From IMG/VR virus record IMGVR_UViG_3300035208_000814: a stretch of DNA of 20,000 bases. One strand, written 5' to 3'. The notes beneath the pieces were generated by a model. That model had not been told where the DNA came from and did no database searches. It was given only the letters and a program-made list of their open reading frames with translations. Position numbers and translations under genes: made by a program. Positions 866 to 9,464 of this stretch are shown here, piece by piece (the stretch's first letter is position 1; each line of letters opens with the position of its first letter). Origin of the DNA: an uncultured virus (IMG/VR IMGVR_UViG_3300035208_000814) (lineage: Duplodnaviria > Heunggongvirae > Uroviricota > Caudoviricetes).

Positions 866-1100
866 TAAACCCTGTACACCCGGATTAAAGTATCCAATAC
901 CAACCCCGCGTTGCTATGCTAATTATGAAAAGTGTGAAGAGTGTGAAAGTTGCATTTTATATGTGAAGTGTCTGACATTGTCGGTTGAATTAGCCTTGAA
1001 TTGTCCTGATACCCTTCAAAAACGCCGCGATTCACTCCAAGAAGAATACCGGGAGGAACTATCCCTCTGTCATGAGCACGAATCAAATCAAAAGGGTTAA
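855..1100 (+). CDS. Small Cys-rich hypothetical protein
   Basis: CY...CEECESC..C pattern; overlaps previous stop; GGAG upstream. Confidence 0.65.
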   Translation: MLINKPCTPGLKYPIPTPRCYANYEKCEECESCILYVKCLTLSVELALNCPDTLQKRRDSLQEEYREELSLCHEHESNQKG

Positions 1101-1124
1101 ATACTTTCAAGTCAATCTCTATGG
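1089..1124 (+). promoter_or_regulatory. Archaeal-type promoter driving the tRNA/ncRNA cluster
   Basis: Purine-rich BRE-like run then TTAAATA at 1097-1103; downstream ATACTTnnAAGTCAA shared with the promoter at 6646. Confidence 0.6.
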
Positions 1125-1218
1125 GTAACGTCTGATTTCGGTCAGATGAGTTCAGGCGTTCAATCCAACAGTAAAAGTAACTAATAACTACTTTTACTTT
1201 CGACAACATAATATACTT

Positions 1219-1291
1219 GGGATTATAGGGTAGTCAGGCATCCTTCCAGACTTGGACTCTGGAGACTGCGGTTCAATTCCGCGTAATCCCA
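1219..1291 (+). tRNA. tRNA-Pro(TGG)
   Basis: GGGATTA/TAATCCC acceptor; CCAGA-CTTGGAC-TCTGG anticodon arm; GGTTCAATTCC T arm. Confidence 0.93.
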
Positions 1292-1425
1292 TAGGGGAAT
1301 GACGCATTAATGGTTAATGCACACATCATCCGATAAGTATATCCTCCGTAGATATATAAGTTGCTTGTTTGTGGTCTGTCTATAGACGTATAGATGGTAT
1401 TGGTTACAGTCCAATCATTCCCCTA
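1292..1425 (+). ncRNA. tRNA-like RNA with enlarged central domain
   Basis: GGGAATG/CATTCCC acceptor; GCAT/ATGC D stem with GG loop; ATTGG-TTACAGT-CCAAT T-like arm; about 75-nt insert in place of the anticodon arm. Confidence 0.65.
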
Positions 1426-1437
1426 GTAGAAACGTAT

Positions 1438-1560
1438 GCGGGGATGGCTCAGTTTGGGAACAGCACATATCATGTCTTACTATCAATTACTAGTATTGGC
1501 AATAGAGTGAGATGGTCAGAGTGTACATAATATGCGTGGGTTCAAATCCCACTCCCTGCG
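1438..1560 (+). ncRNA. tRNA-like RNA with extended anticodon arm (or intron-containing tRNA of unresolved identity)
   Basis: GCGGGGA/TCCCTGC acceptor; GCTCAGTTTGGGAACAGC D arm; GTGGG-TTCAAAT-CCCAC T arm; long bulged hairpin instead of a canonical anticodon loop. Confidence 0.7.
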
Positions 1561-1565
1561 TTAAT

Positions 1566-1635
1566 GATTGTATCGCCAATGGTAGGCAAGCAGTCTCCAA
1601 AACTGCCGATGTGAGTTCAAGTCTTACTACAGTCA
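1566..1635 (+). tRNA. tRNA-Trp(CCA)
   Basis: GATTGTA/TACAGTC; GCAGT-CTCCAAA-ACTGC; GTGAG-TTCAAGT-CTTAC. Confidence 0.9.
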
Positions 1636-1639
1636 TTTT

Positions 1640-1712
1640 GCTAATGTAGCACAATTGGTAGTGTCCCATCCTGTTAAGATGGTGGTTGCAAGTTCGAGTC
1701 TTGTCATTAGCG
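1640..1712 (+). tRNA. tRNA-Asn(GTT)
   Basis: GCTAATG/CATTAGC; CCATC-CTGTTAA-GATGG; GCAAG-TTCGAGT-CTTGT. Confidence 0.93.
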
Positions 1713-1716
1713 TTGA

Positions 1717-1787
1717 ACATCATTAGTGTAGAGGTAGCACGATTCGTTTACACCGAATCAGAATAGGTTCGATTCCTGTATGATGTA
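1717..1787 (+). tRNA. tRNA-Val(TAC)
   Basis: ACATCAT/ATGATGT; ATTCG-TTTACAC-CGAAT; ATAGG-TTCGATT-CCTGT. Confidence 0.92.
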
Positions 1788-1859
1788 TGTCGTGTAGTAT
1801 ATTGGCTAGTATTGTGGCCTCATAAGCCACGGAAGGAAGTTCGATTCTTCCCATGACAA
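1788..1859 (+). tRNA. tRNA with CAT anticodon (Met; Ile2 not excluded)
   Basis: TGTCGTG/CATGACA; GTGGC-CTCATAA-GCCAC; GGAAG-TTCGATT-CTTCC. Confidence 0.92.
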
Positions 1860-1979
1860 TATAATAGTTACAGAGATCATAACTCTGACTATTAGAATGT
1901 ATCTTAACTACATGTCACTGTTCCTCCGTAGAATATACTGAATGGTTAAGTGGTGTTACATACCAATATCAATGTAGTA

Positions 1980-2039
1980 AGGTTGATCATTCAATTGGAT
2001 AGGATTACGTAAATCAGGGTTCAAGTCCCTGTCAACCTT
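1980..2039 (+). ncRNA. Anticodon-less tRNA-like RNA (about 60 nt)
   Basis: AGGTTGA/TCAACCT acceptor; ATTC-AATTGGATA-GGAT D arm; only 9 nt (TACGTAAAT) before the CAGGG-TTCAAGT-CCCTG T arm. Confidence 0.8.
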
Positions 2040-2040
2040 T

Positions 2041-2112
2041 GTGATTGTAAGGTAACAGTAAGCCTATCAGGTTGTGACACTGAAAGATGGAGTGCAACTC
2101 TCCACTATCACA
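2041..2112 (+). tRNA. tRNA-His(GTG)
   Basis: GTGATTG/CTATCAC (one mismatch); TCAG(G)-TTGTGAC-(A)CTGA; TGGAG-TGCAACT-CTCCA; atypical D and T loops. Confidence 0.8.
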
Positions 2113-2120
2113 TGCACTCG

Positions 2121-2340
2121 TTTCCCGATATATGTTCTGGTGCAGATTAGAAAATATATTACTCAGTATCATACGCATTTGAGTATAAATATTGAAGTAT
2201 GACGTAGCATGAGTAAACGTGATGATGACGCATGGTAACGAAATAAGAAGTCACCTTACTATATGGGCATACGCTGTATAGTTCGTAGTTCGGTATGTGA
2301 ATCTCCCGCCAGAGAGAGCAGAACCAATATGTCTGGCAAA
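2121..2340 (+). ncRNA. Unknown structured RNA, about 220 nt
   Basis: Terminal pairing GATATAT-GTTCTG (2127-2139) with CAGAAC-ca-ATATGTC (2319-2333); internal helices TACTCA/TGAGTA, TCATAC/GTATGA, GCATAC/GTATGT; bounded by tRNAs. Confidence 0.5.
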
Positions 2341-2344
2341 GTAA

Positions 2345-2417
2345 CCGTATGTAGTAGAGGGGTTAATACGATGGGCTGTAAACCTATTGACCGCAAGTTC
2401 AAATCTTGCCATACGGA
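2345..2417 (+). tRNA. tRNA-Tyr(GTA), archaeal/eukaryotic type
   Basis: CCGTATG/CATACGG (C1-G72, A73); ATGGG-CTGTAAA-CCTAT; short variable loop. Confidence 0.93.
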
Positions 2418-2502
2418 TTGTCCATATGACATTACCCTGCATGGTGATTAATCTGGATGGGTGGGGAATAAGGTGTCAAGGAATACCCATCATTATATTA
2501 GA

Positions 2503-2586
2503 GTGGTTATGCTAGAGTGGTCTATTAGGTACGGTTTAGACCCGTATGGTTTAGTACCTTCGTAAGTTCAAATCTTACTAACCACA
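2503..2586 (+). tRNA. tRNA-Leu(TAG)
   Basis: GTGGTTA/TAACCAC; TACGG-TTTAGAC-CCGTA; long variable arm. Confidence 0.92.
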
Positions 2587-2587
2587 T

Positions 2588-2654
2588 TGGTAGTAGATGG
2601 GCATAAGGTATGAGGTAGAGCCTTAAATGTACAATCTTCCTCAATCTATTACCA
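2588..2654 (+). ncRNA. Structured RNA motif, related copy at 7084-7138
   Basis: TGGTAGTAGAT/ATCTATTACCA closing stem; TGAGG/CCTCA inner stem. Confidence 0.5.
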
Positions 2655-2674
2655 TTACTTGTATAGAAAATAAA

Positions 2675-2755
2675 GGGTGTATGCCAGAGCGGTTATTGGG
2701 CCAGACTTAAGATCTGGTGGTTAGTCCTTCACAAGTTCGATCCTTGTTACACCCA
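2675..2755 (+). tRNA. tRNA-Leu(TAA)
   Basis: GGGTGTA/TACACCC; CCAGA-CTTAAGA-TCTGG; variable arm; ACAAG-TTCGATC-CTTGT. Confidence 0.93.
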
Positions 2756-2780
2756 TCAACCTTTAACTAGGTGATTAACT

Positions 2781-2912
2781 ATGTCAATTAAACTTCCACT
2801 AACATCTAAATGTAGAATATCATATGATTTAAAATATGTTTTTAAATCAAGATATGATTATAAGTGTATATTAAAGGGATGGAGAATAGGATACTTTAAA
2901 ATAGTTAAGTGA
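2781..2912 (+). CDS. Small basic hypothetical protein (43 aa)
   Basis: AGGTGA SD; MSIKLPLTSKCRISYDLKYVFKSRYDYKCILKGWRIGYFKIVK; below the ORF-track cutoff. Confidence 0.55.
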   Translation: MSIKLPLTSKCRISYDLKYVFKSRYDYKCILKGWRIGYFKIVK

Positions 2913-2917
2913 TTACT

Positions 2918-3034
2918 GTGAATACAGAAGAAAACTTACTACTACTAATATTGATGTTCTGTGTAATACCAATGATAATAGCAATTATAACAACATATTA
3001 TTATGTTAAATGGTTAAACAAGCATCACTTGTGA
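2918..3034 (+). CDS. Small single-TM protein (38 aa)
   Basis: GTG start after GTGA; MNTEENLLLLILMFCVIPMIIAIITTYYYVKWLNKHHL. Confidence 0.5.
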   Translation: MNTEENLLLLILMFCVIPMIIAIITTYYYVKWLNKHHL

Positions 3035-3040
3035 TTAATT

Positions 3041-3190
3041 ATGAGTAGAACTATAAGACATGGGGAGAGGACTTGTGGGCGATGGTGTCCGTGGTGTTAT
3101 CCCAAAGAGTCTTATAATGGTTCTATTCGTATGAGACGTAGATTACAAATACATAGAGAATTAACAGAATATTTCACTCCCGTAGTGTAA
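3041..3190 (+). CDS. Small basic Cys-containing protein (49 aa)
   Basis: GTGA upstream; MSRTIRHGERTCGRWCPWCYPK...; 3' end overlaps tRNA-Gln. Confidence 0.55.
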   Translation: MSRTIRHGERTCGRWCPWCYPKESYNGSIRMRRRLQIHRELTEYFTPVV

Positions 3191-3251
3191 CGCTGGTAAA
3201 TCATCAAAGTCTTTGAAACTTTGGACGTAGGTTCAACTCCTGCCGGGAGAA
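3176..3251 (+). tRNA. tRNA-Gln(TTG)
   Basis: CTCCCG/CGGGAG (1:72 mismatch); AAAGT-CTTTGAA-ACTTT; GTAGG-TTCAACT-CCTGC. Confidence 0.9.
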
Positions 3252-3264
3252 TTTAATAAATTAC

Positions 3265-3335
3265 TCACCTATAGAACAATGGCAGTTCACACTTCTTATA
3301 AGGGTGCTACGTGGGTTCAATTCCCTCTAGGTGAA
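3265..3335 (+). tRNA. tRNA-Ile(TAT)
   Basis: TCACCTA/TAGGTGA; GAAC/GTTC D stem; CACTT-CTTATAA-GGGTG; GGG-TTCAATT-CCC. Confidence 0.88.
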
Positions 3336-3362
3336 TGTAACCTCTAGATAGTAGGGGTTAAT

Positions 3363-3433
3363 GCACATATGGCAGATTGGATATGCGTTGGATTGCAGAT
3401 CCGATAATGTAGGTTCAATTCCTACTATGTGCT
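3363..3433 (+). tRNA. tRNA-Cys(GCA)
   Basis: GCACATA/TATGTGC with U73; TTGGA-TTGCAGA-TCCGA. Confidence 0.92.
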
Positions 3434-3436
3434 TAT

Positions 3437-3510
3437 GGGGATATAATGTAGTCTGGATTGCATACCGGACTTTTAATCCGGTTGTATGGGTTCAAGTCCC
3501 ATTATCCCCG
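3437..3510 (+). tRNA. tRNA-Lys(TTT)
   Basis: GGGGATA/TATCCCC; CCGGA-CTTTTAA-TCCGG; ATGGG-TTCAAGT-CCCAT. Confidence 0.94.
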
Positions 3511-3586
3511 TTTATAATTTTAGTATCGTTATATGACCAGTGGGAACTATCCAAATTATTTCGTAAAGTAAAACGGAGAGGTTTAA

Positions 3587-3817
3587 ATGTCAAATGAAGA
3601 GAAATATGTAGTAGTGCCAATTGAATATGATGGAGAATTAGGACAGATTGACTTTGAATCATATAGTCACTCTACCATTGAAGCCACACGGGAAGATATG
3701 GAAGAGAATATTGATCCTGATGACTATGAAAGAGTTGCAATCTGTAAAGTTATTGAAGTATTTAAGGCCGGAAAGTGGACATTAGAGGAAAAGTATTGTC
3801 CAGTGACGAAGAAGTAA
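3587..3817 (+). CDS. Acidic hypothetical protein
   Basis: GAGGT SD; ORF track; tight packing. Confidence 0.75.
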   Translation: MSNEEKYVVVPIEYDGELGQIDFESYSHSTIEATREDMEENIDPDDYERVAICKVIEVFKAGKWTLEEKYCPVTKK

Positions 3818-6335: not shown

Positions 6336-6635
6336 ATGAAGATTGGTAACATGGAATTAAGTGGCATTACTAAGGTAATGTTCTACCGGAAGAATCTTTT
6401 TGAACGAATGCCCACTGGAAAGGGTGGTTTCTACTGGTTTGATGCCAAGAGATGTAAATTCATTAGCGACAGGGACATTGTAGAGGTAATCAATGGCTGT
6501 AACAATAACCCAAAGAAACACGTATGGAGTCACGGCGACACCATAAATGTCATCAGAAAGGATCAGCGCGAAACATCCCGGTCAATCCTTCAAGCCCCCA
6601 TTTTACGGGCTGAAAGGACAATCCCCCTCTGGTGA
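6336..6635 (+). CDS. Hypothetical protein
   Basis: GGAG SD; ORF track. Confidence 0.7.
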   Translation: MKIGNMELSGITKVMFYRKNLFERMPTGKGGFYWFDAKRCKFISDRDIVEVINGCNNNPKKHVWSHGDTINVIRKDQRETSRSILQAPILRAERTIPLW

Positions 6636-6637
6636 CG

Positions 6638-6670
6638 GCGTAACCTTTATATACTTATAAGTCAACCTAG
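6638..6670 (+). promoter_or_regulatory. Archaeal-type promoter for the ncRNA array/Ro60 locus
   Basis: TTTATATA at 6646-6653; ATACTTATAAGTCAA matches ATACTTTCAAGTCAA at 1101. Confidence 0.65.
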
Positions 6671-6756
6671 TAGGTAGAGGCTGTGTTCATTTACGGTTAC
6701 TTCACTTTGACCTTGAAACTAACACCGTAGATACTAGTTCTCCTCTAACTAACTAG
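6667..6756 (+). ncRNA. Candidate Y RNA 1
   Basis: TAGAGG/CCTCTA outer stem; TGTG..GTTCT internal loop; ATTTACGGT/ACCGTAGAT inner stem; TACTTC loop start; upstream of Ro60. Confidence 0.7.
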
Positions 6757-6786
6757 CAATAGTCAAGTTAACAGTTCAATGGATAC

Positions 6787-6859
6787 TAATGGGATGTGGA
6801 AGTTTACAGTTACTTCACACTTGGCGAAATTATCACTGTAGACAATTGTTCTCCCGTTA
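6787..6859 (+). ncRNA. Candidate Y RNA 2
   Basis: TAATGGGA/TCCCGTTA; TGTGGAA..GTTC; GTTTACAGT/ACTGTAGAC; TACTTC. Confidence 0.7.
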
Positions 6860-6967
6860 TTCCTTGATAAGTTTCAGTATATAAGTCCTTCCCGAAAAGG
6901 ATGAGGCTGCCGTTTGGTGGTGTGACGAAGTAGGGAAGGCATAATTAAAAATAAAACATAATATATC

Positions 6968-7046
6968 ATGATAGGTTGCGAGAGATTACAGTTACTCCTT
7001 GCCTTGGAAAGATAACTAACACTGTAATCATTAATTCTCCTATTAT
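6968..7046 (+). ncRNA. Candidate Y RNA 3
   Basis: ATGATAGG/CCTATTAT; TGCG..ATTCT; GATTACAGT/ACTGTAATC; TACTCC. Confidence 0.7.
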
Positions 7047-7151
7047 TAATTGACATCTACAGTGGTATAATTATCCTTAAATGGGTAGTAGATGTATGAG
7101 CGAGGAGATTACCACTGAATCCTCAATCCCAATTACCAGTGAAATATTACA

Positions 7152-7247
7152 TGAGTAAGTTGCGTATATTACAGTTACTTCTTGGTTACAAAACACACAG
7201 ACTAATCATCTGTATTATTTATCTGTAATAGCCTGTTCTCTTACTCA
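7152..7247 (+). ncRNA. Candidate Y RNA 4
   Basis: TGAGTAAG/CTTACTCA; TGCG..GTTCT; TATTACAG/CTGTAATA; TACTTC; extra ACAGA/TCTGT hairpin in the loop. Confidence 0.7.
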
Positions 7248-7337
7248 ACCTTGATACGACTTAATTGTATTGACGGATAATGTGCAAAAGTGTCGGTAGT
7301 CACTATAAAAACTACCATTAATTTTGAAGTGATTTTT

Positions 7338-8027
7338 ATGCGTACTAACACAAAGAGTGTAAACCATCCAAAACCATCTAAATTACAAAACACATCAAGT
7401 AATGAAATAGAGAATAAGGTTAACCTGTATACACAAGTAGCAAGTTGCCTTGTAAATGAAGATAAGTTCTATGAATCAGGTAAAAATGCTAATAAGAACC
7501 TGCTAGAATCTATTAAGAAAGTAGATGATACAGAATGGATTTTGAAGTTAGCGACTTATGCCCGAAACGAATTACACCTAAGAACTGTACCATTAGTGCT
7601 AACTTCTGAGATAGCATTGGACTCTAACCGTAATAAAGATTTCGGTGCAAGGAAATATGTTAATGCAGTAGTTCAGCGTCCAGATGAGATACCCGAATTG
7701 TTAGCATATAACAAACAAAGATGTGCAGAGTTAGGGAGAGACAAATTACCGCAAATGATTCTCAAAGGTCTAACCCCAGTGTGGTCAAAATTTGGTAGAT
7801 ACCACATTGCCAAATACCGTAAAGATGATAGTAAGTTCACTCTCCGTGATGCAATGTTCTTAACTCATCCAATGCCATCTGACGAGTTAGAGACGACATA
7901 TAATGAACTTGCCAACAAAACATTAAAGTTAGACGAATCTACAGAAACATGGGAGTCATATATCAGTGAGCATGGTTCAACCAGAGAGAATTGGGAACAT
8001 ATAATTGATATGTGGATAATTACATAG
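7338..8027 (+). CDS. Ro60/TROVE ribonucleoprotein, N-terminal part
   Basis: EDKFYES, KLATYARNELHLRTVP, VQRPDE, AKY, LRDAMFLTHP, ETWE motifs typical of TROVE; ATG 7338 after GTGA preferred to GTG 7290. Confidence 0.9.
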   Translation: MRTNTKSVNHPKPSKLQNTSSNEIENKVNLYTQVASCLVNEDKFYESGKNANKNLLESIKKVDDTEWILKLATYARNELHLRTVPLVLTSEIALDSNRNKDFGARKYVNAVVQRPDEIPELLAYNKQRCAELGRDKLPQMILKGLTPVWSKFGRYHIAKYRKDDSKFTLRDAMFLTHPMPSDELETTYNELANKTLKLDESTETWESYISEHGSTRENWEHIIDMWIIT

Positions 8028-8035
8028 TAATAATC

Positions 8036-8707
8036 ATGAGAAATTATAAGAAGTGGACAGAGGAAGAGAATACTTATTTACGTCTCAATTGGTGTAGAGC
8101 ATCTGAACATGAGTTAGAGACTACACTAGGGCGTAAGTTTACTGCTATAAATAGACAAGCATTCATGAACGGTATATCTGGAAGAGAAATTAATAGAAAG
8201 TTATGGTCTGATTCTGATATACAATATTTAACAGAGAATTGGGTATGGAGTAGTAAAGAAGAACTAGAATACCACCTCAATCGAAATATTAATGCTATAA
8301 AGCGTCAAGCGTACTTGTTAAAACTACCTAGGCGCGTAGCCCGTGGTAAGAATTGCTTTAAGTTTATATCTAGTATAGATGGTAAATCATATAATGCATT
8401 CTATAGCCGTGGGTATGCCTTGGTACGTATTAACAGAAAGAATATACCATTACATAGAGTAGAAATGGAGAAACTACTAGGTAGGAAATTATCACCCAAT
8501 GAGAGAGTTCATCATAAAAATGGCATTAAGAATGATAATAGACCAGAAAACTTAATATTATATGATAATCATATGAGACATGCTCATATAGATACCAGAC
8601 GTGCCGAAATTGCTGAACAGTTCATAGCAGAAAAACAACTTATAAAGGAGTATGAGGATTATTATGAAAGTAAAACAGGTAAACAATTATATGGCTATGT
8701 TGCGTAA
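8036..8707 (+). CDS. HNH homing endonuclease with two Myb/SANT-like HTH repeats, inserted in Ro60
   Basis: WTEEENTYL.. and WSDSDIQYL.. repeats; LHRVEMEKLLGRKL...VHHKNGIKNDNRPENL HNH motif. Confidence 0.88.
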   Translation: MRNYKKWTEEENTYLRLNWCRASEHELETTLGRKFTAINRQAFMNGISGREINRKLWSDSDIQYLTENWVWSSKEELEYHLNRNINAIKRQAYLLKLPRRVARGKNCFKFISSIDGKSYNAFYSRGYALVRINRKNIPLHRVEMEKLLGRKLSPNERVHHKNGIKNDNRPENLILYDNHMRHAHIDTRRAEIAEQFIAEKQLIKEYEDYYESKTGKQLYGYVA

Positions 8708-9464
8708 TTTGAATAACATAACTAAAGTGGGTGTATCACAGCATCATATTGATAAAGTATGTGCCGCGTTAACTGATGTTAATGCTGTAGAGAAGTCCAA
8801 ACAGTTACCCTTTAGGTTTTTTACGGCTTACAAGCAACTTGGGGGAGAATATTCTATATGGGCGAAATCCCTTGAACAGGCCATGACAATATCATGTGCT
8901 AATATCCCTAAACTAAGTGGACGAACAGCCATATTAGTAGACACATCGGGCTCAATGCATTCAGCAATCAGTGGTAAATCCTCTGTACAATGTGTAGAGA
9001 TTGCCTCATTAATGGGGGCTATGCTACATCATGTATCAAATGATAATGTAGTTATCACATTTGATTCAGATGCATTTGTAGTCAACCAACTAATAGGGGA
9101 ATCTGTATTATATGATGCTAATATGATATGGACTAGCCGTAATGGTGGGGTAACATATCTATATAAAGCACTGGAATTAATGATTAAGCAGAGAATATAC
9201 GTTGATCGTATCATTGTATTAAGTGATATGCAGACGTATGGGGCACAAGAGAAAAGATACCTTGATATGTATAAAAATGTAGGTAATCCTAATGTTAAGA
9301 CATTCACAGTGGATTTACAAGGTTATTCCCACAATTCAAATACATTAGGTTCAGATAATGTCTATCAACTGGCCGGATATTCTGATCGTATCTTTAATCT
9401 TATCGCAGCGTATGATCAAGATTCAGCCGCCATCGTCAATTATATTCAGAATCTAGTGGTGTAA
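8664..9464 (+). CDS. Ro60/TROVE C-terminal part with vWA domain
   Basis: YMAMLRNL, SKQLPFRF, MIDAS DTSGSM, GGVT, IIVLSDMQ, VDLQGY, GYSD; same reading frame as the N-terminal part; start at 8652 or 8664. Confidence 0.9.
   Translation: MKVKQVNNYMAMLRNLNNITKVGVSQHHIDKVCAALTDVNAVEKSKQLPFRFFTAYKQLGGEYSIWAKSLEQAMTISCANIPKLSGRTAILVDTSGSMHSAISGKSSVQCVEIASLMGAMLHHVSNDNVVITFDSDAFVVNQLIGESVLYDANMIWTSRNGGVTYLYKALELMIKQRIYVDRIIVLSDMQTYGAQEKRYLDMYKNVGNPNVKTFTVDLQGYSHNSNTLGSDNVYQLAGYSDRIFNLIAAYDQDSAAIVNYIQNLVV

What the first reader, a model, noticed from the sequence alone, without database searches (positions are those of the whole stretch)
1292..1425. tRNA-shaped RNA with a large inserted domain and atypical TTACAGT T-loop
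Seen: 11-bp closing stem TAGGGGAATGA/TCATTCCCCTA, D arm and T-like arm, with a branched ~75-nt domain (CATC/GATG, GATAAGT/GCTTGTT, TATATC-CTCCGTA-GATATA, GTCT/AGAC) in place of the anticodon arm. The T-loop heptamer TTACAGT also occurs in Y-like units 2-4, which may be coincidence. I could not find an intron excision that yields a canonical tRNA. Inference: a novel tRNA-scaffolded ncRNA.
Basis: partly seen in the sequence, partly recalled or inferred. Interest (0 to 1): 0.7.

Follow-up and report, generated by a model that had tools for sequence, protein, structure and literature searches.

The report
tRNA-shaped RNA with oversized anticodon arm
A virus that probably infects archaea carries, inside its row of tRNA genes, a very stably folded tRNA-shaped RNA whose anticodon arm is replaced by a long helix plus an extra hairpin, so it probably cannot decode and may act as a tRNA look-alike, though with no relatives or RNA data this stays unproven.

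Summary
The element is real. An 11-bp perfect closing stem (1292-1302/1415-1425), a D arm and a 5-bp T-like arm with loop TTACAGT frame 77 extra bases. The whole RNA folds far better than shuffles (-45.6 kcal/mol, z -4.77, 0 of 200).

It is a five-arm, class-II-like cloverleaf with a 52-nt irregular "anticodon" arm (1322-1373, apical loop CUCCGUA) and a separate 7-9-bp extra arm.

ARAGORN (with and without introns) and Rfam (E up to 10) do not call it. None of my deletion or two-intron models restores a canonical tRNA. Only one 19-nt candidate bulge-helix-bulge intron exists, in the extra arm.

The host is probably archaeal: the tRNA-Tyr is class I with C1-G72, and the Ro60 gene carries a splice-motif-flanked insert. 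A multi-intron pre-tRNA therefore remains a live rival.

No relatives were found in any collection and no RNA run holds it, so there is no covariation or expression evidence.

Best reading (about 0.5): a tRNA-derived, non-decoding structured RNA cut out of the viral tRNA operon. Its function is unknown, possibly a tRNA mimic tied to the virus's own Ro60. Moderately interesting.

The parts
1292..1302 (+). 5' strand of the 11-bp closing stem. 1295-1301 is the 7-bp acceptor-stem equivalent, 1294 is a G that pairs with C1423 (a G-1:C73-like pair), and 1292-1293 are two further leader/trailer pairs.
   Evidence: Perfect inverted repeat I15; pair probabilities 0.70-1.0.
1304..1320 (+). D arm: GCAT/ATGC 4-bp stem with 9-nt loop TAATGGTTA (G18 G19 and A21 equivalents). 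It can also fold as a 6-7-bp stem with a 3-5-nt loop.
   Evidence: Sequence; pair probabilities 0.56-1.0.
1322..1373 (+). 52-nt irregular long arm in place of the 17-nt anticodon arm. It is built from helices CACA/UGUG, CA/UG, CGAU/GUUG and GUAUAUC/GAUAUAU, separated by 1x2, 2x2 and 2x2 internal loops.
   Evidence: Alone it folds at -11.1 kcal/mol, z -2.55, 2 of 200 shuffles as good, MFE frequency 0.78; pair probabilities 0.94-1.0.
1344..1350 (+). Apical 7-nt loop CUCCGUA of the long arm. It is anticodon-loop-sized with U at the second place but U, not a purine, at the '37' place, and it contains CCUCC.
   Evidence: The 11-mer TCCTCCGTAGA recurs exactly at 1922-1932.
1376..1397 (+). Extra (variable-arm-like) hairpin: 7 bp (1378-1384/1389-1395), up to 9 bp, with loop GACG. 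An alternative pairing makes 1376-1394 a 19-nt candidate bulge-helix-bulge intron.
   Evidence: Pair probabilities 0.75-0.86. The hBHBh' motif has central helix 4 of 4 pairs, outer helix 4 and inner helix 4-5 pairs; 6 of the 12 pairs counting four in each helix are G-U.
1399..1415 (+). T-like arm ATTGG/CCAAT with 7-nt loop UUACAGU. The U54, U55, A58 and G53-C61 equivalents are kept; C56 is A and R57 is C.
   Evidence: Sequence. Enforcing this arm within the full tRNA frame costs only 0.2 kcal/mol; its unconstrained pair probabilities are 0.16-0.49.
1415..1425 (+). 3' strand of the closing stem. 1416-1422 is the acceptor equivalent and C1423 is the discriminator equivalent.

Best explanation
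The element at 1292-1425 is a gene for a tRNA-derived, non-decoding structured RNA of about 129-131 nt.

Proposed processing (inferred, not shown):
- It is co-transcribed with the flanking tRNAs. It lies 2-3 nt after tRNA-Pro and about 12 nt before the next tRNA-like gene.
- Its intact acceptor/T-arm stack and D arm let the host's tRNA end-processing enzymes (RNase P, tRNase Z, CCA-adding enzyme) cut it out and stabilise it.

Why it probably cannot decode (read from the sequence):
- The anticodon arm is replaced by a 52-nt helix with three internal loops and the loop CUCCGUA, followed by a 7-9-bp extra arm.
- The elbow and core deviate from tRNA rules: A8/U14 instead of U8/A14, A56 C57 instead of C56 R57.
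- The RNA should therefore not fit the ribosome as a decoder.

Proposed action (inference only): it works as a tRNA look-alike that presents the long arm and its loops to a protein. The most attractive partner is the Ro60 protein that the same virus encodes 6 kb downstream. Alternatively it is a decoy for host enzymes that bind or cut tRNA.

Shown: the fold, the tRNA frame, the failure of tRNA and intron models, and the genomic setting.
For: 1. The fold is far more stable than chance and strand-specific: z -4.77 with 0 of 200 shuffles as good, against z -1.75 for the opposite strand and z -0.64 to -3.41 for six true tRNAs.
2. All helices are perfect and well defined. The full tRNA frame costs only 0.2 kcal/mol over the MFE.
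3. It is not recognised as tRNA, tmRNA or any Rfam family. ARAGORN finds 12 genes and none here; ARAGORN with introns finds 13 genes and none here. Rfam gives no hit at gathering score, nor at E up to 10 in 2.6-kb and 281-nt scans.
4. Intron models fail.
   - 4851 single deletions gave 38 ARAGORN calls, all 89-98 nt class-II-like products with poor anticodon stems.
   - Enumerating all models of up to two introns with the body held fixed gave 19 candidates. None has a full central helix at either intron.
   - After removing the only canonical motif, 2759 further deletions gave 14 calls, none of class I size.
5. It sits in a tightly packed tRNA array on the coding strand.
6. The neighbouring tRNA-like gene at 1438-1560 also has a long insert (66 nt) in place of its anticodon arm. 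It shares the exact 11-mer GCACAYATCAT at the same structural place, namely the D-stem end, position 26 and the 5' strand of the arm (the only two exact matches in the window).
7. The virus encodes Ro60 (TROVE plus vWA). In bacteria, at least one Ro60-associated Y RNA per species carries a tRNA-like domain (passages of PMC4201824).
Against: - There are no relatives, so no covariation. Viral, metagenome and genome collections and protein searches returned only the sequence itself or Ro60 proteins at 59% identity or less.
- The two metagenomes that hold it are identical over the element.
- The T arm is only moderately favoured in the unconstrained ensemble (0.16-0.49).
- The host is probably archaeal, and the virus appears to use the host splicing motif in its Ro60 gene. 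A pre-tRNA with several or atypical introns is therefore not excluded.
- One canonical bulge-helix-bulge motif does sit in the element (1376-1394).
- The element is 5.9 kb from the Ro60 gene, whereas four Y-like units lie directly upstream of that gene. No match to the YrlA or Y RNA models was found.
- The neighbour's arm and the related stretch at 1907-1979 are not more stable than shuffles (z +0.12 and -0.21).
Confidence: 0.5

Rival explanations
1. It is a heavily interrupted archaeal pre-tRNA. Two or more intervening sequences, some without a textbook motif, are removed by the host splicing endonuclease and ligase to give a decoding tRNA.
For: - The host is probably archaeal. The tRNA-Tyr at 2345-2417 is class I (73 nt) with C1-G72 (read). 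The best DNA polymerase matches are haloarchaeal tailed viruses.
- The Ro60 gene is interrupted by a 669-nt insert flanked by a 10-bp exon-exon helix, 3-nt bulges and a central helix with 3 of 4 pairs. Its removal gives one open frame of 501 aa with the same spacing as an uninterrupted relative.
- The element holds one canonical hBHBh' motif at 1376-1394.
- The archaeal virus HGTV-1 has a 132-nt gene annotated 'tRNA-Asp + intron' between rtcB and its TROVE gene.
- Asgard tRNA genes average 2.2 intervening sequences, of which the standard annotator missed 30% (abstract of 10.64898/2026.10.13.758758).
- G1294:C1423 resembles the His identity pair, and UUGUGGU (1369-1375) resembles a His anticodon loop.
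Against: - No model with one or two introns restores a 5-bp anticodon stem, a 7-nt loop with U33 and R37, and a 4-5-nt variable loop with splice motifs.
- The canonical 37/38 register gives only 1 of 4 central pairs, by hand reading of the sequence.
- Strict motifs of equal or higher score are common in control spacers of the same array: 2-11 per spacer.
- The His-loop reading leaves no workable anticodon stem.
- A tRNA-His(GUG) already exists at 2041-2112.
- The insert is itself a highly ordered helix, which introns do not need.
- The T loop and the 8/14 pair deviate from tRNA rules.
Confidence: 0.22
2. It is a decayed tRNA gene (a relic of duplication within the array) that picked up palindromic AT-rich insertions and has no function of its own.
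For: - Core tRNA rules are broken: A8/U14, A56 C57, no usable anticodon loop.
- The array holds other defective-looking units. One is a unit without an anticodon arm at 1981-2038 (33.5 bits). Another is a tRNA-like gene with a 66-nt insert at 1438-1560 whose arm is no more stable than shuffles.
- The helices are built from short palindromes (TATAGA, ATATAT) that slippage can create.
- There is no evidence of conservation.
Against: - Every helix of the frame and of the insert is perfect: 11, 7, 4, 4, 7, 7 and 5 bp.
- The whole is more stable than any of 200 shuffles, which decay would erode.
- Intergenic space in this virus is tight.
- The sequence is identical in two metagenomes from different habitats.
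Confidence: 0.18
3. It is a chance inverted repeat between two tRNA genes and not a discrete RNA.
For: Only one sequence is available. AT-rich DNA forms many short hairpins.
Against: z -4.77 with 0 of 200 shuffles as good. It is one of two perfect inverted repeats of 11 nt or more among the 25 pairs listed of 30. The D- and T-arm geometry lies at the right distances from the closing stem.
Confidence: 0.03

Closest known systems
Bacterial and phage Y RNAs of the YrlA type, and D. radiodurans Yrn1 (Ro60 partners; Rfam RF02553; PMC4201824 and bioRxiv 10.1101/312249, passages read)
   Same: A tRNA-like core (acceptor-type stem, D and T arms) is joined to a long irregular helix that leaves the core where the anticodon stem would be. 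It is encoded by a genome that also encodes Ro60. Many YrlA RNAs have long class-II-like variable arms. Yrn1 is described as having its ends on the acceptor side.
   Different: In YrlA the acceptor stem is a closed loop and the RNA ends lie in the long Ro60-binding stem. Here the acceptor end is open and the long arm is capped by a loop, a circular permutation of that design. There is no Rfam match. The T loop is not the conserved one. The element lies 5.9 kb from the Ro60 gene, inside the tRNA array. No Ro60-binding motif could be tested.
Intron-containing archaeal (and archaeal-virus) pre-tRNAs with bulge-helix-bulge splice sites, such as the 132-nt 'tRNA-Asp + intron' gene of Halovirus HGTV-1
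   Same: The host domain is probably archaeal. The length is about 130 nt. The large insert is in the anticodon region and the acceptor, D and T arms are intact. In HGTV-1 the gene also lies near a TROVE/Ro60 gene.
   Different: Removing the insert, or any pair of inserts tested, does not give a canonical anticodon arm. The main insert has no splice motif. Rfam's tRNA model scores HGTV-1's gene at 45.7 bits but gives no hit here.
Stable small RNAs of unknown function in phage tRNA regions (T4 RNAC and RNAD)
   Same: These are phage-encoded stable RNAs that are not tRNAs. PMC9697503 (passage read) calls them RNAs of yet unknown function. That they lie beside and are processed with the T4 tRNAs is my recollection, not a call.
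   Different: They are from a bacterial phage. No sequence or structural likeness was tested here.
tRNA-Sec and other class II tRNAs
   Same: The acceptor plus T stack can be read as 8+5 bp. The D stem is 6-7 bp with a small loop, and there is a long extra arm.
   Different: There is no UCA, or any canonical anticodon, in a 7-nt loop at the right distance. The anticodon arm is 52 nt instead of 17. There is no Rfam tRNA-Sec match at E up to 10.
tmRNA (a tRNA-like domain enclosing a large insert)
   Same: The acceptor and T arm are formed by the two ends, with a large domain in place of the anticodon arm.
   Different: There are no pseudoknots or tag reading frame, and the element is only 134 nt. 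ARAGORN's tmRNA search is negative. tmRNA is a bacterial system.

Membership tests
canonical tRNA | 7-bp acceptor stem, D arm with G18 G19, and a 5-bp T stem with G53-C61 and U54/A58 | tested here: met
   1295-1301/1416-1422; D loop TAATGGTTA; ATTGG/CCAAT with loop U-U-A-C-A-G-U.
canonical tRNA | Core tertiary rules: U8-A14, G19-C56 and a purine at 57 | tested here: not met
   Position 8 is A and 14 is U; 56 is A and 57 is C (read). The A15/U48 Levitt-type pair is possible.
canonical tRNA | 5-bp anticodon stem with a 7-nt loop (U33, R37) directly after position 26 | tested here: not met
   A 52-nt arm takes its place. The bases after the first helix read C-A-U-C-C-G-A (A at 33). The apical loop CUCCGUA lies 17 bp and three internal loops away.
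canonical tRNA | Detected by tRNA finders or a covariance model | tested here: not met
   ARAGORN; Rfam RF00005 gives no hit at E up to 10. tRNAscan-SE was not available.
archaeal intron-containing pre-tRNA | Bulge-helix-bulge (or hBH / HBh') motif at each exon-intron boundary | tested here: inconclusive
   There is one canonical motif at 1376-1394. All boundaries of the main insert are at best 'relaxed' (3 of 4 central pairs) within +/-3 nt. Control spacers give 2-11 strict motifs each.
archaeal intron-containing pre-tRNA | Removal of the intervening sequences restores a cloverleaf with a normal anticodon arm and variable loop | tested here: not met
   Searches covered one and two introns with the body held fixed. 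Three or more introns, or introns in the body, were not enumerated.
YrlA / Y RNA | Match to the family covariance models (RF02553, RF00019) | tested here: not met
   No hit at E up to 10. The Y-like region 6600-7320 also gave none.
YrlA / Y RNA | Encoded next to a Ro60 (TROVE) gene | tested here: inconclusive
   The Ro60 pieces lie at 7290-8027 and 8652-9464 on the same strand, 5.9 kb downstream. Four other Y-like units lie directly upstream of the gene.
YrlA / Y RNA | RNA ends in a long stem that holds the Ro60 binding site; acceptor-like stem closed by a loop | tested here: not met
   The ends lie in the acceptor-like stem and the long arm is closed by a loop.
YrlA / Y RNA | Binding to Ro60 | not testable with these tools
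   This needs a binding assay with the viral Ro60.
tmRNA | Tag reading frame and pseudoknots between the tRNA-like ends | tested here: not met
   ARAGORN tmRNA search is negative. No Rfam tmRNA hit lies in the element.
tRNA-Sec | UCA anticodon in a 7-nt loop on a 6-bp stem, with a 13-bp acceptor/T stack, long D stem and long extra arm | tested here: not met
   The stack (8+5), D stem (6-7 bp) and extra arm are compatible, but there is no such anticodon arm and no Rfam hit.

The most novel reading that the evidence does not exclude
The element, and perhaps its neighbour at 1438-1560, is an 'unpermuted' Y RNA of an archaeal virus. In this reading the tRNA frame has an open acceptor end that may be extended with CCA and even charged. 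The target has a G-1:C73-type pair, the His identity mark. The neighbour has G3-U70, the Ala mark. Both marks work without the anticodon. The long anticodon-side helix would be the docking site for the virus's own Ro60. That would be the first Y-RNA-type partner in the archaeal world. It would also link Y RNAs directly to tRNA genes that gained an insert, rather than to permuted tRNAs.
Probability: 0.1. Interest if true: 0.8.

Novelty: new variant of a known kind. Interest (0 to 1): 0.45.

Why it matters
tRNA look-alikes are used by cells and viruses to recruit or distract tRNA-binding machinery; examples are Y RNAs, tmRNA and viral tRNA-like ends. A tRNA frame with an open acceptor end and a long helical arm, inside the tRNA operon of a probable archaeal virus that also carries Ro60, would be a new design of such a mimic. 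It would also give a handle on what Ro60 does in archaeal viruses, where no RNA partner is known. If it instead proves to be a multiply interrupted tRNA, it would show that current finders miss viral tRNA genes with atypical introns. Either outcome can be tested with one Northern blot or small-RNA library.

Tried and rejected
1. Relatives. The following searches gave nothing usable:
   - blastn (distant mode) of 1100-3600 against phages: no match.
   - Neighbour proteins against viral contigs: 0 confirmed.
   - Protein searches: the best NAMPT relative is about 50% identical. The 145-aa neighbour finds only itself. The best Ro60 relative is 59% identical on a 2.3-kb contig.
   - Ro60 alignment against metagenome contigs: the window's own DNA, on a contig that starts after the element, plus four loci at 28-34% identity.
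   - Exact 31-mer in genome contigs: 0.
   - Two-motif pattern in viral contigs: 0.
   - No whole genome is held for the window.
2. Expression. No RNA holder was listed. The two DNA holders may be the source samples. Contigs laid on the window show no difference in the element.
3. Link to the Y-like units through TTACAGT. There are 6 matches against 4.5 expected and GTTACAG gives 6 against 2.6. In the units the motif is one strand of a covarying helix (TTTACAGT/ACTGTAGA; the first unit has TTTACGGT/ACCGTAGA), not a hairpin loop. I treat it as coincidence.
4. Anti-Shine-Dalgarno idea. The loop CUCCGUA is fully complementary to TACGGAG in front of ORF 6336 and 6 of 7 complementary in front of ORF 3587. 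ACGGAG occurs 8 times against 3.6 expected, with 9 of 200 shuffles reaching 8, and any GGAG ribosome site gives 4 of the 7 pairs. Not significant.
5. tRNA-His reading (G-1:C73 plus UUGUGGU). No anticodon stem can be formed, and a tRNA-His already exists at 2041-2112.
6. tRNA-Arg(CCG) reading of the apical hairpin with two flanking introns. Only 'relaxed' motifs were found, and U stands at position 37.
7. Paralogy with 1900-2040 and with 1437-1562 by alignment. Nothing beyond short motifs was found.
8. Sigma-70 promoters and intrinsic terminators around the array are at shuffle level. The archaeal TATA-type pattern occurs only twice in the window.
9. The YrlA consensus could not be viewed. The tRNA array beside the Ro gene of Gordonia phage Neville gave no YrlA hit at E 0.01, only lone T arms in its gaps.
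10. The intron-bearing tRNA of HGTV-1 has no relatives for comparison.
11. C/D boxes were looked for by eye only; none was seen.
12. Supplementary files of the papers were not consulted.

Full report
**What is there.**
The window is a virus-like stretch with all genes on the + strand and a dense tRNA array at 1218-3510. ARAGORN finds 12 tRNAs. Rfam adds a tRNA at 2041-2112 and two weak ones at 1438-1560 and 1980-2039.

The finding lies between tRNA-Pro, which ends at 1291/1292, and the weak tRNA at 1438. The 11-bp perfect inverted repeat TAGGGGAATGA/TCATTCCCCTA is at 1292-1302/1415-1425. It is one of only two perfect inverted repeats of 11 nt or more among the 25 pairs listed of 30.

Inside it lie a D arm (1304-1320; GCAT/ATGC with loop TAATGGTTA) and a T-like arm (1399-1415; ATTGG-TTACAGT-CCAAT), at the distances from the closing stem expected for a tRNA.

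The 136-nt stretch folds at -45.6 kcal/mol, against -29.1 +/- 3.5 for 200 dinucleotide-preserving shuffles (z -4.77, none as good). Six true tRNAs of the array give z -0.64 to -3.41. The opposite strand gives z -1.75.

**Which fold.**
Forcing a tRNA frame (7-bp acceptor, 4-bp D stem, 5-bp T stem with 7-nt loop) costs only 0.2 kcal/mol (-45.4).

In the ensemble the 77 extra bases form two separate arms:
- A 52-nt irregular arm at 1322-1373. Its helices are CACA/UGUG, CA/UG, CGAU/GUUG and GUAUAUC/GAUAUAU, with pair probabilities 0.94-1.0 and apical loop CUCCGUA.
- An extra hairpin of 7-9 bp at 1376-1397, with pair probabilities 0.75-0.86.

The shape is therefore a five-arm, class-II-like cloverleaf with a grossly elongated anticodon arm.

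The long arm alone is well defined: -11.1 kcal/mol, z -2.55, 2 of 200 shuffles as good, MFE frequency 0.78.

**Is it a tRNA?**
No program says so.
- ARAGORN makes no call, with or without introns.
- Rfam gives no hit at gathering score or at E up to 10, even when only 281 nt are searched.
- The neighbour at 1438-1560 scores 33.1 bits with a 66-nt insert.

Reading the sequence, the frame keeps G18 G19, A21, G53-C61, U54, U55, A58 and a possible A15-U48 pair. It breaks U8-A14 (A8, U14) and the elbow (A56 C57 instead of C56 R57). The bases after the first helix of the arm read CAUCCGA, with A where U33 should be. The apical loop CUCCGUA has U at the place of purine 37.

**Setting and host.**
The window encodes NAMPT, a family B DNA polymerase, a Sak4-type protein, thymidylate synthase and a Ro60 protein (TROVE plus vWA). 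The Ro60 gene is in two pieces, 7290-8027 and 8652-9464, with an HNH endonuclease gene between them.

Several observations point to an archaeal host:
- The tRNA-Tyr at 2345-2417 is 73 nt with a 5-nt variable loop and a C1-G72 pair (read). By established knowledge this is the archaeal/eukaryal type; bacterial tRNA-Tyr has a long extra arm and G1-C72.
- The best phage-database matches of the polymerase are haloarchaeal tailed viruses at about 26% identity.
- The Ro60 C piece also matches HGTV-1.
- The two Ro60 pieces align to residues 7-223 and 228-487 of an uninterrupted relative, P0122.
- The 669 nt at 8014-8682 are flanked by a perfect 10-bp exon-exon helix, two 3-nt bulges and a central helix with 3 of 4 pairs.
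- Removing these 669 nt gives one open frame of 501 aa with junction HII-DMYN-YMAM, against HII-PSMG-YMAL in P0122.
- No group I or II intron signal exists there at E up to 10, and the HNH frame fills almost the whole insert.

I read this insert as an archaeal-type spliceosome-independent intron. That reading makes the intron explanation for the finding a serious rival.

**Intron tests.**
My motif scorer uses the published geometry (passages of PMC4090602; section 4.8 of 10.64898/2026.10.13.758758).
- *Motif scan.* The element has three strict hBHBh' hits. Only one, 1376-1394 (19 nt), lies sensibly, and 6 of its 12 pairs (four counted in each helix) are G-U. Control spacers of the array give 2-11 strict hits each.
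- *Single deletions.* 4851 single deletions gave 38 ARAGORN calls. All are 89-98-nt class-II-like products (Ser, Lys, Gly, Arg, His and others) with weak anticodon stems.
- *Two-intron models.* I enumerated every model of up to two introns that keeps the body and yields a stem of at least 4 pairs, U33, R37 and a 4-5-nt variable loop. This gave 19 solutions, none with a full central helix at either intron.
- *Named models.* The Arg-CCG arm, His, Gly at 37/38 and Ser models, scored in their spliced context with +/-3 nt freedom, are at best 'relaxed' for the main insert.
- *After the candidate intron.* With 1376-1394 removed, 2759 further deletions gave 14 calls, none of class I size.
- *Limits.* Models with three or more introns, or with introns in the body, were not enumerated. 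As a caution, the annotated intron-bearing tRNA of HGTV-1 also scores only 'relaxed' in my scorer, so a negative result is not proof.

**Relations inside the window.**
- The neighbour at 1438-1560 has the same design: an intact acceptor, D and T arms, and 66 nt instead of the anticodon arm. It shares the exact 11-mer GCACAYATCAT at the same structural place. These are the only two exact matches in the window. Its arm is no more stable than shuffles (z +0.12).
- It has a G3-U70 pair, and the element has a G-1:C73-type pair. By established knowledge these are the Ala and His identity marks, both independent of the anticodon. This is suggestive but post hoc.
- The 11-mer TCCTCCGTAGA, which is the loop plus its two closing pairs, recurs at 1922-1932. 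There it can form a 5-bp hairpin with two compensatory pairs. That stretch (1907-1979) is not unusually stable (z -0.21), and alignment shows nothing further.
- The TTACAGT link to the Y-like units is at chance level.

**Comparative and expression data.**
None could be had. The virus has no detectable relatives in any collection searched. The same DNA occurs without differences in the element in a groundwater and a landfill metagenome, either of which may be the source. No RNA run was listed.

**Explanation.**
The best-supported reading (about 0.5) is a tRNA-derived, non-decoding structured RNA. It would be released from the tRNA operon by the tRNA end-processing enzymes. Its tRNA frame would give processing and stability, and its long arm and loops would be the working part.

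A role as a tRNA look-alike for the virus's own Ro60 is attractive for three reasons:
- Bacterial Ro60 partners carry tRNA-like domains joined to a long helix at the anticodon position (PMC4201824 and 10.1101/312249, passages).
- Ro60-encoding phages interleave such RNAs with tRNA genes: Gordonia phage Neville has lone T arms in the gaps of the array beside its Ro gene.
- HGTV-1 places its odd 132-nt tRNA gene between rtcB and its TROVE gene.

That role is inference only. There is no family-model match, the topology is the circular permutation of YrlA, and four better-placed Y-like units lie directly upstream of the Ro60 gene.

The rivals are a multiply interrupted pre-tRNA (0.22), a decayed tRNA gene (0.18) and a chance fold (0.03).

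**Novelty and verdict.**
tRNA mimics are a known kind. This would be a new variant: an open acceptor end, an elongated capped anticodon arm, a class-II-like extra arm and an altered elbow, in the tRNA operon of a probable archaeal virus.

The evidence rests on one sequence. Interest is 0.45. It would be much higher if the Ro60 link or charging were shown, and low if sequencing shows a spliced ordinary tRNA.

Noticed in passing
window 7290-9464 (insert 8014-8682): The viral Ro60 (TROVE + vWA) gene is interrupted by 669 nt that hold an HNH endonuclease frame. The insert is flanked by a perfect 10-bp exon-exon helix, 3-nt bulges and a central helix with 3 of 4 pairs, as in an archaeal bulge-helix-bulge intron. 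Its removal gives one 501-aa frame with the same spacing as the uninterrupted relative P0122. There is no group I or II intron signal. An archaeal-type intron with an HNH gene in a viral protein gene would be unusual.
   Followed up: partly
window 6655-7270: Four tandem Y-RNA-like units lie directly upstream of the Ro60 gene. Each has an outer stem, an inner helix TTTACAGT/ACTGTAGA with compensatory changes between units (the first unit has ACGG/CCGT; the third and fourth have ATTACAG/CTGTAAT) and a conserved TTACTTC tail. None matches Rfam Y RNA or YrlA. A TTTATATA box lies at 6646.
   Followed up: partly
window 6875-6947: A DUF3800-X RNA (Rfam RF02984, 49.1 bits against a gathering score of 38.2) sits between Y-like units 2 and 3. 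Related copies lie on other contigs in both metagenomes.
   Followed up: no
window 1438-1560: This is a second tRNA-like gene (Rfam tRNA 33.1 bits) with a 66-nt insert instead of the anticodon arm. It has canonical D and T loops, a G3-U70 pair and almost no variable loop. ARAGORN with introns calls it Ser(aga), unconvincingly. Its arm is not more stable than shuffles.
   Followed up: partly
window 1907-2039: A 73-nt stem-closed element (1907-1979) carries the same TCCTCCGTAGA motif, the D-loop-like AATGGTTAA and a TTACA loop. It is followed at 1981-2038 by a tRNA-like unit that has acceptor, D and T arms but no anticodon arm (Rfam tRNA 33.5 bits; weak mascRNA-type hit at 20.4 bits).
   Followed up: partly
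window 2041-2112: A tRNA-His(GUG) is found only by Rfam (45.1 bits) and missed by ARAGORN. It has A at the discriminator, no encoded G-1, a G31-A39 mismatch and a T loop that lacks the usual U-U-C (read).
   Followed up: no
window 2345-2417: The tRNA-Tyr(GTA) is class I (73 nt, 5-nt variable loop) with a C1-G72 pair. This is the archaeal/eukaryal type and points to an archaeal host for this tailed-virus-like genome.
   Followed up: partly
L007 5290-5421 (Halovirus HGTV-1): The 132-nt gene annotated 'tRNA-Asp (gtc) + intron' lies between rtcB and the TROVE gene. ARAGORN reads it instead as Gln(ctg) with a 58-nt intron at 31/32. Neither reading has a full splice motif in my scorer, and position 33 is C in the annotated reading. 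It may deserve the same question as the present element.
   Followed up: partly
L006 4227-5216 (Gordonia phage Neville): The tRNA array just downstream of the Ro-like gene has 130-340-nt gaps that hold lone T arms (around 4340 and 4997). These are likely Y-RNA-type tRNA mimics that Rfam did not call at E 0.01.
   Followed up: no
whole window: The same DNA, with 1 other letter in 19995 bases on the one contig that spans it, occurs in a groundwater metagenome (77-kb contig) and in a landfill metagenome, where four non-contiguous contig pieces cover most of the window (0-1 other letters). Either sample may be the source.
   Followed up: no
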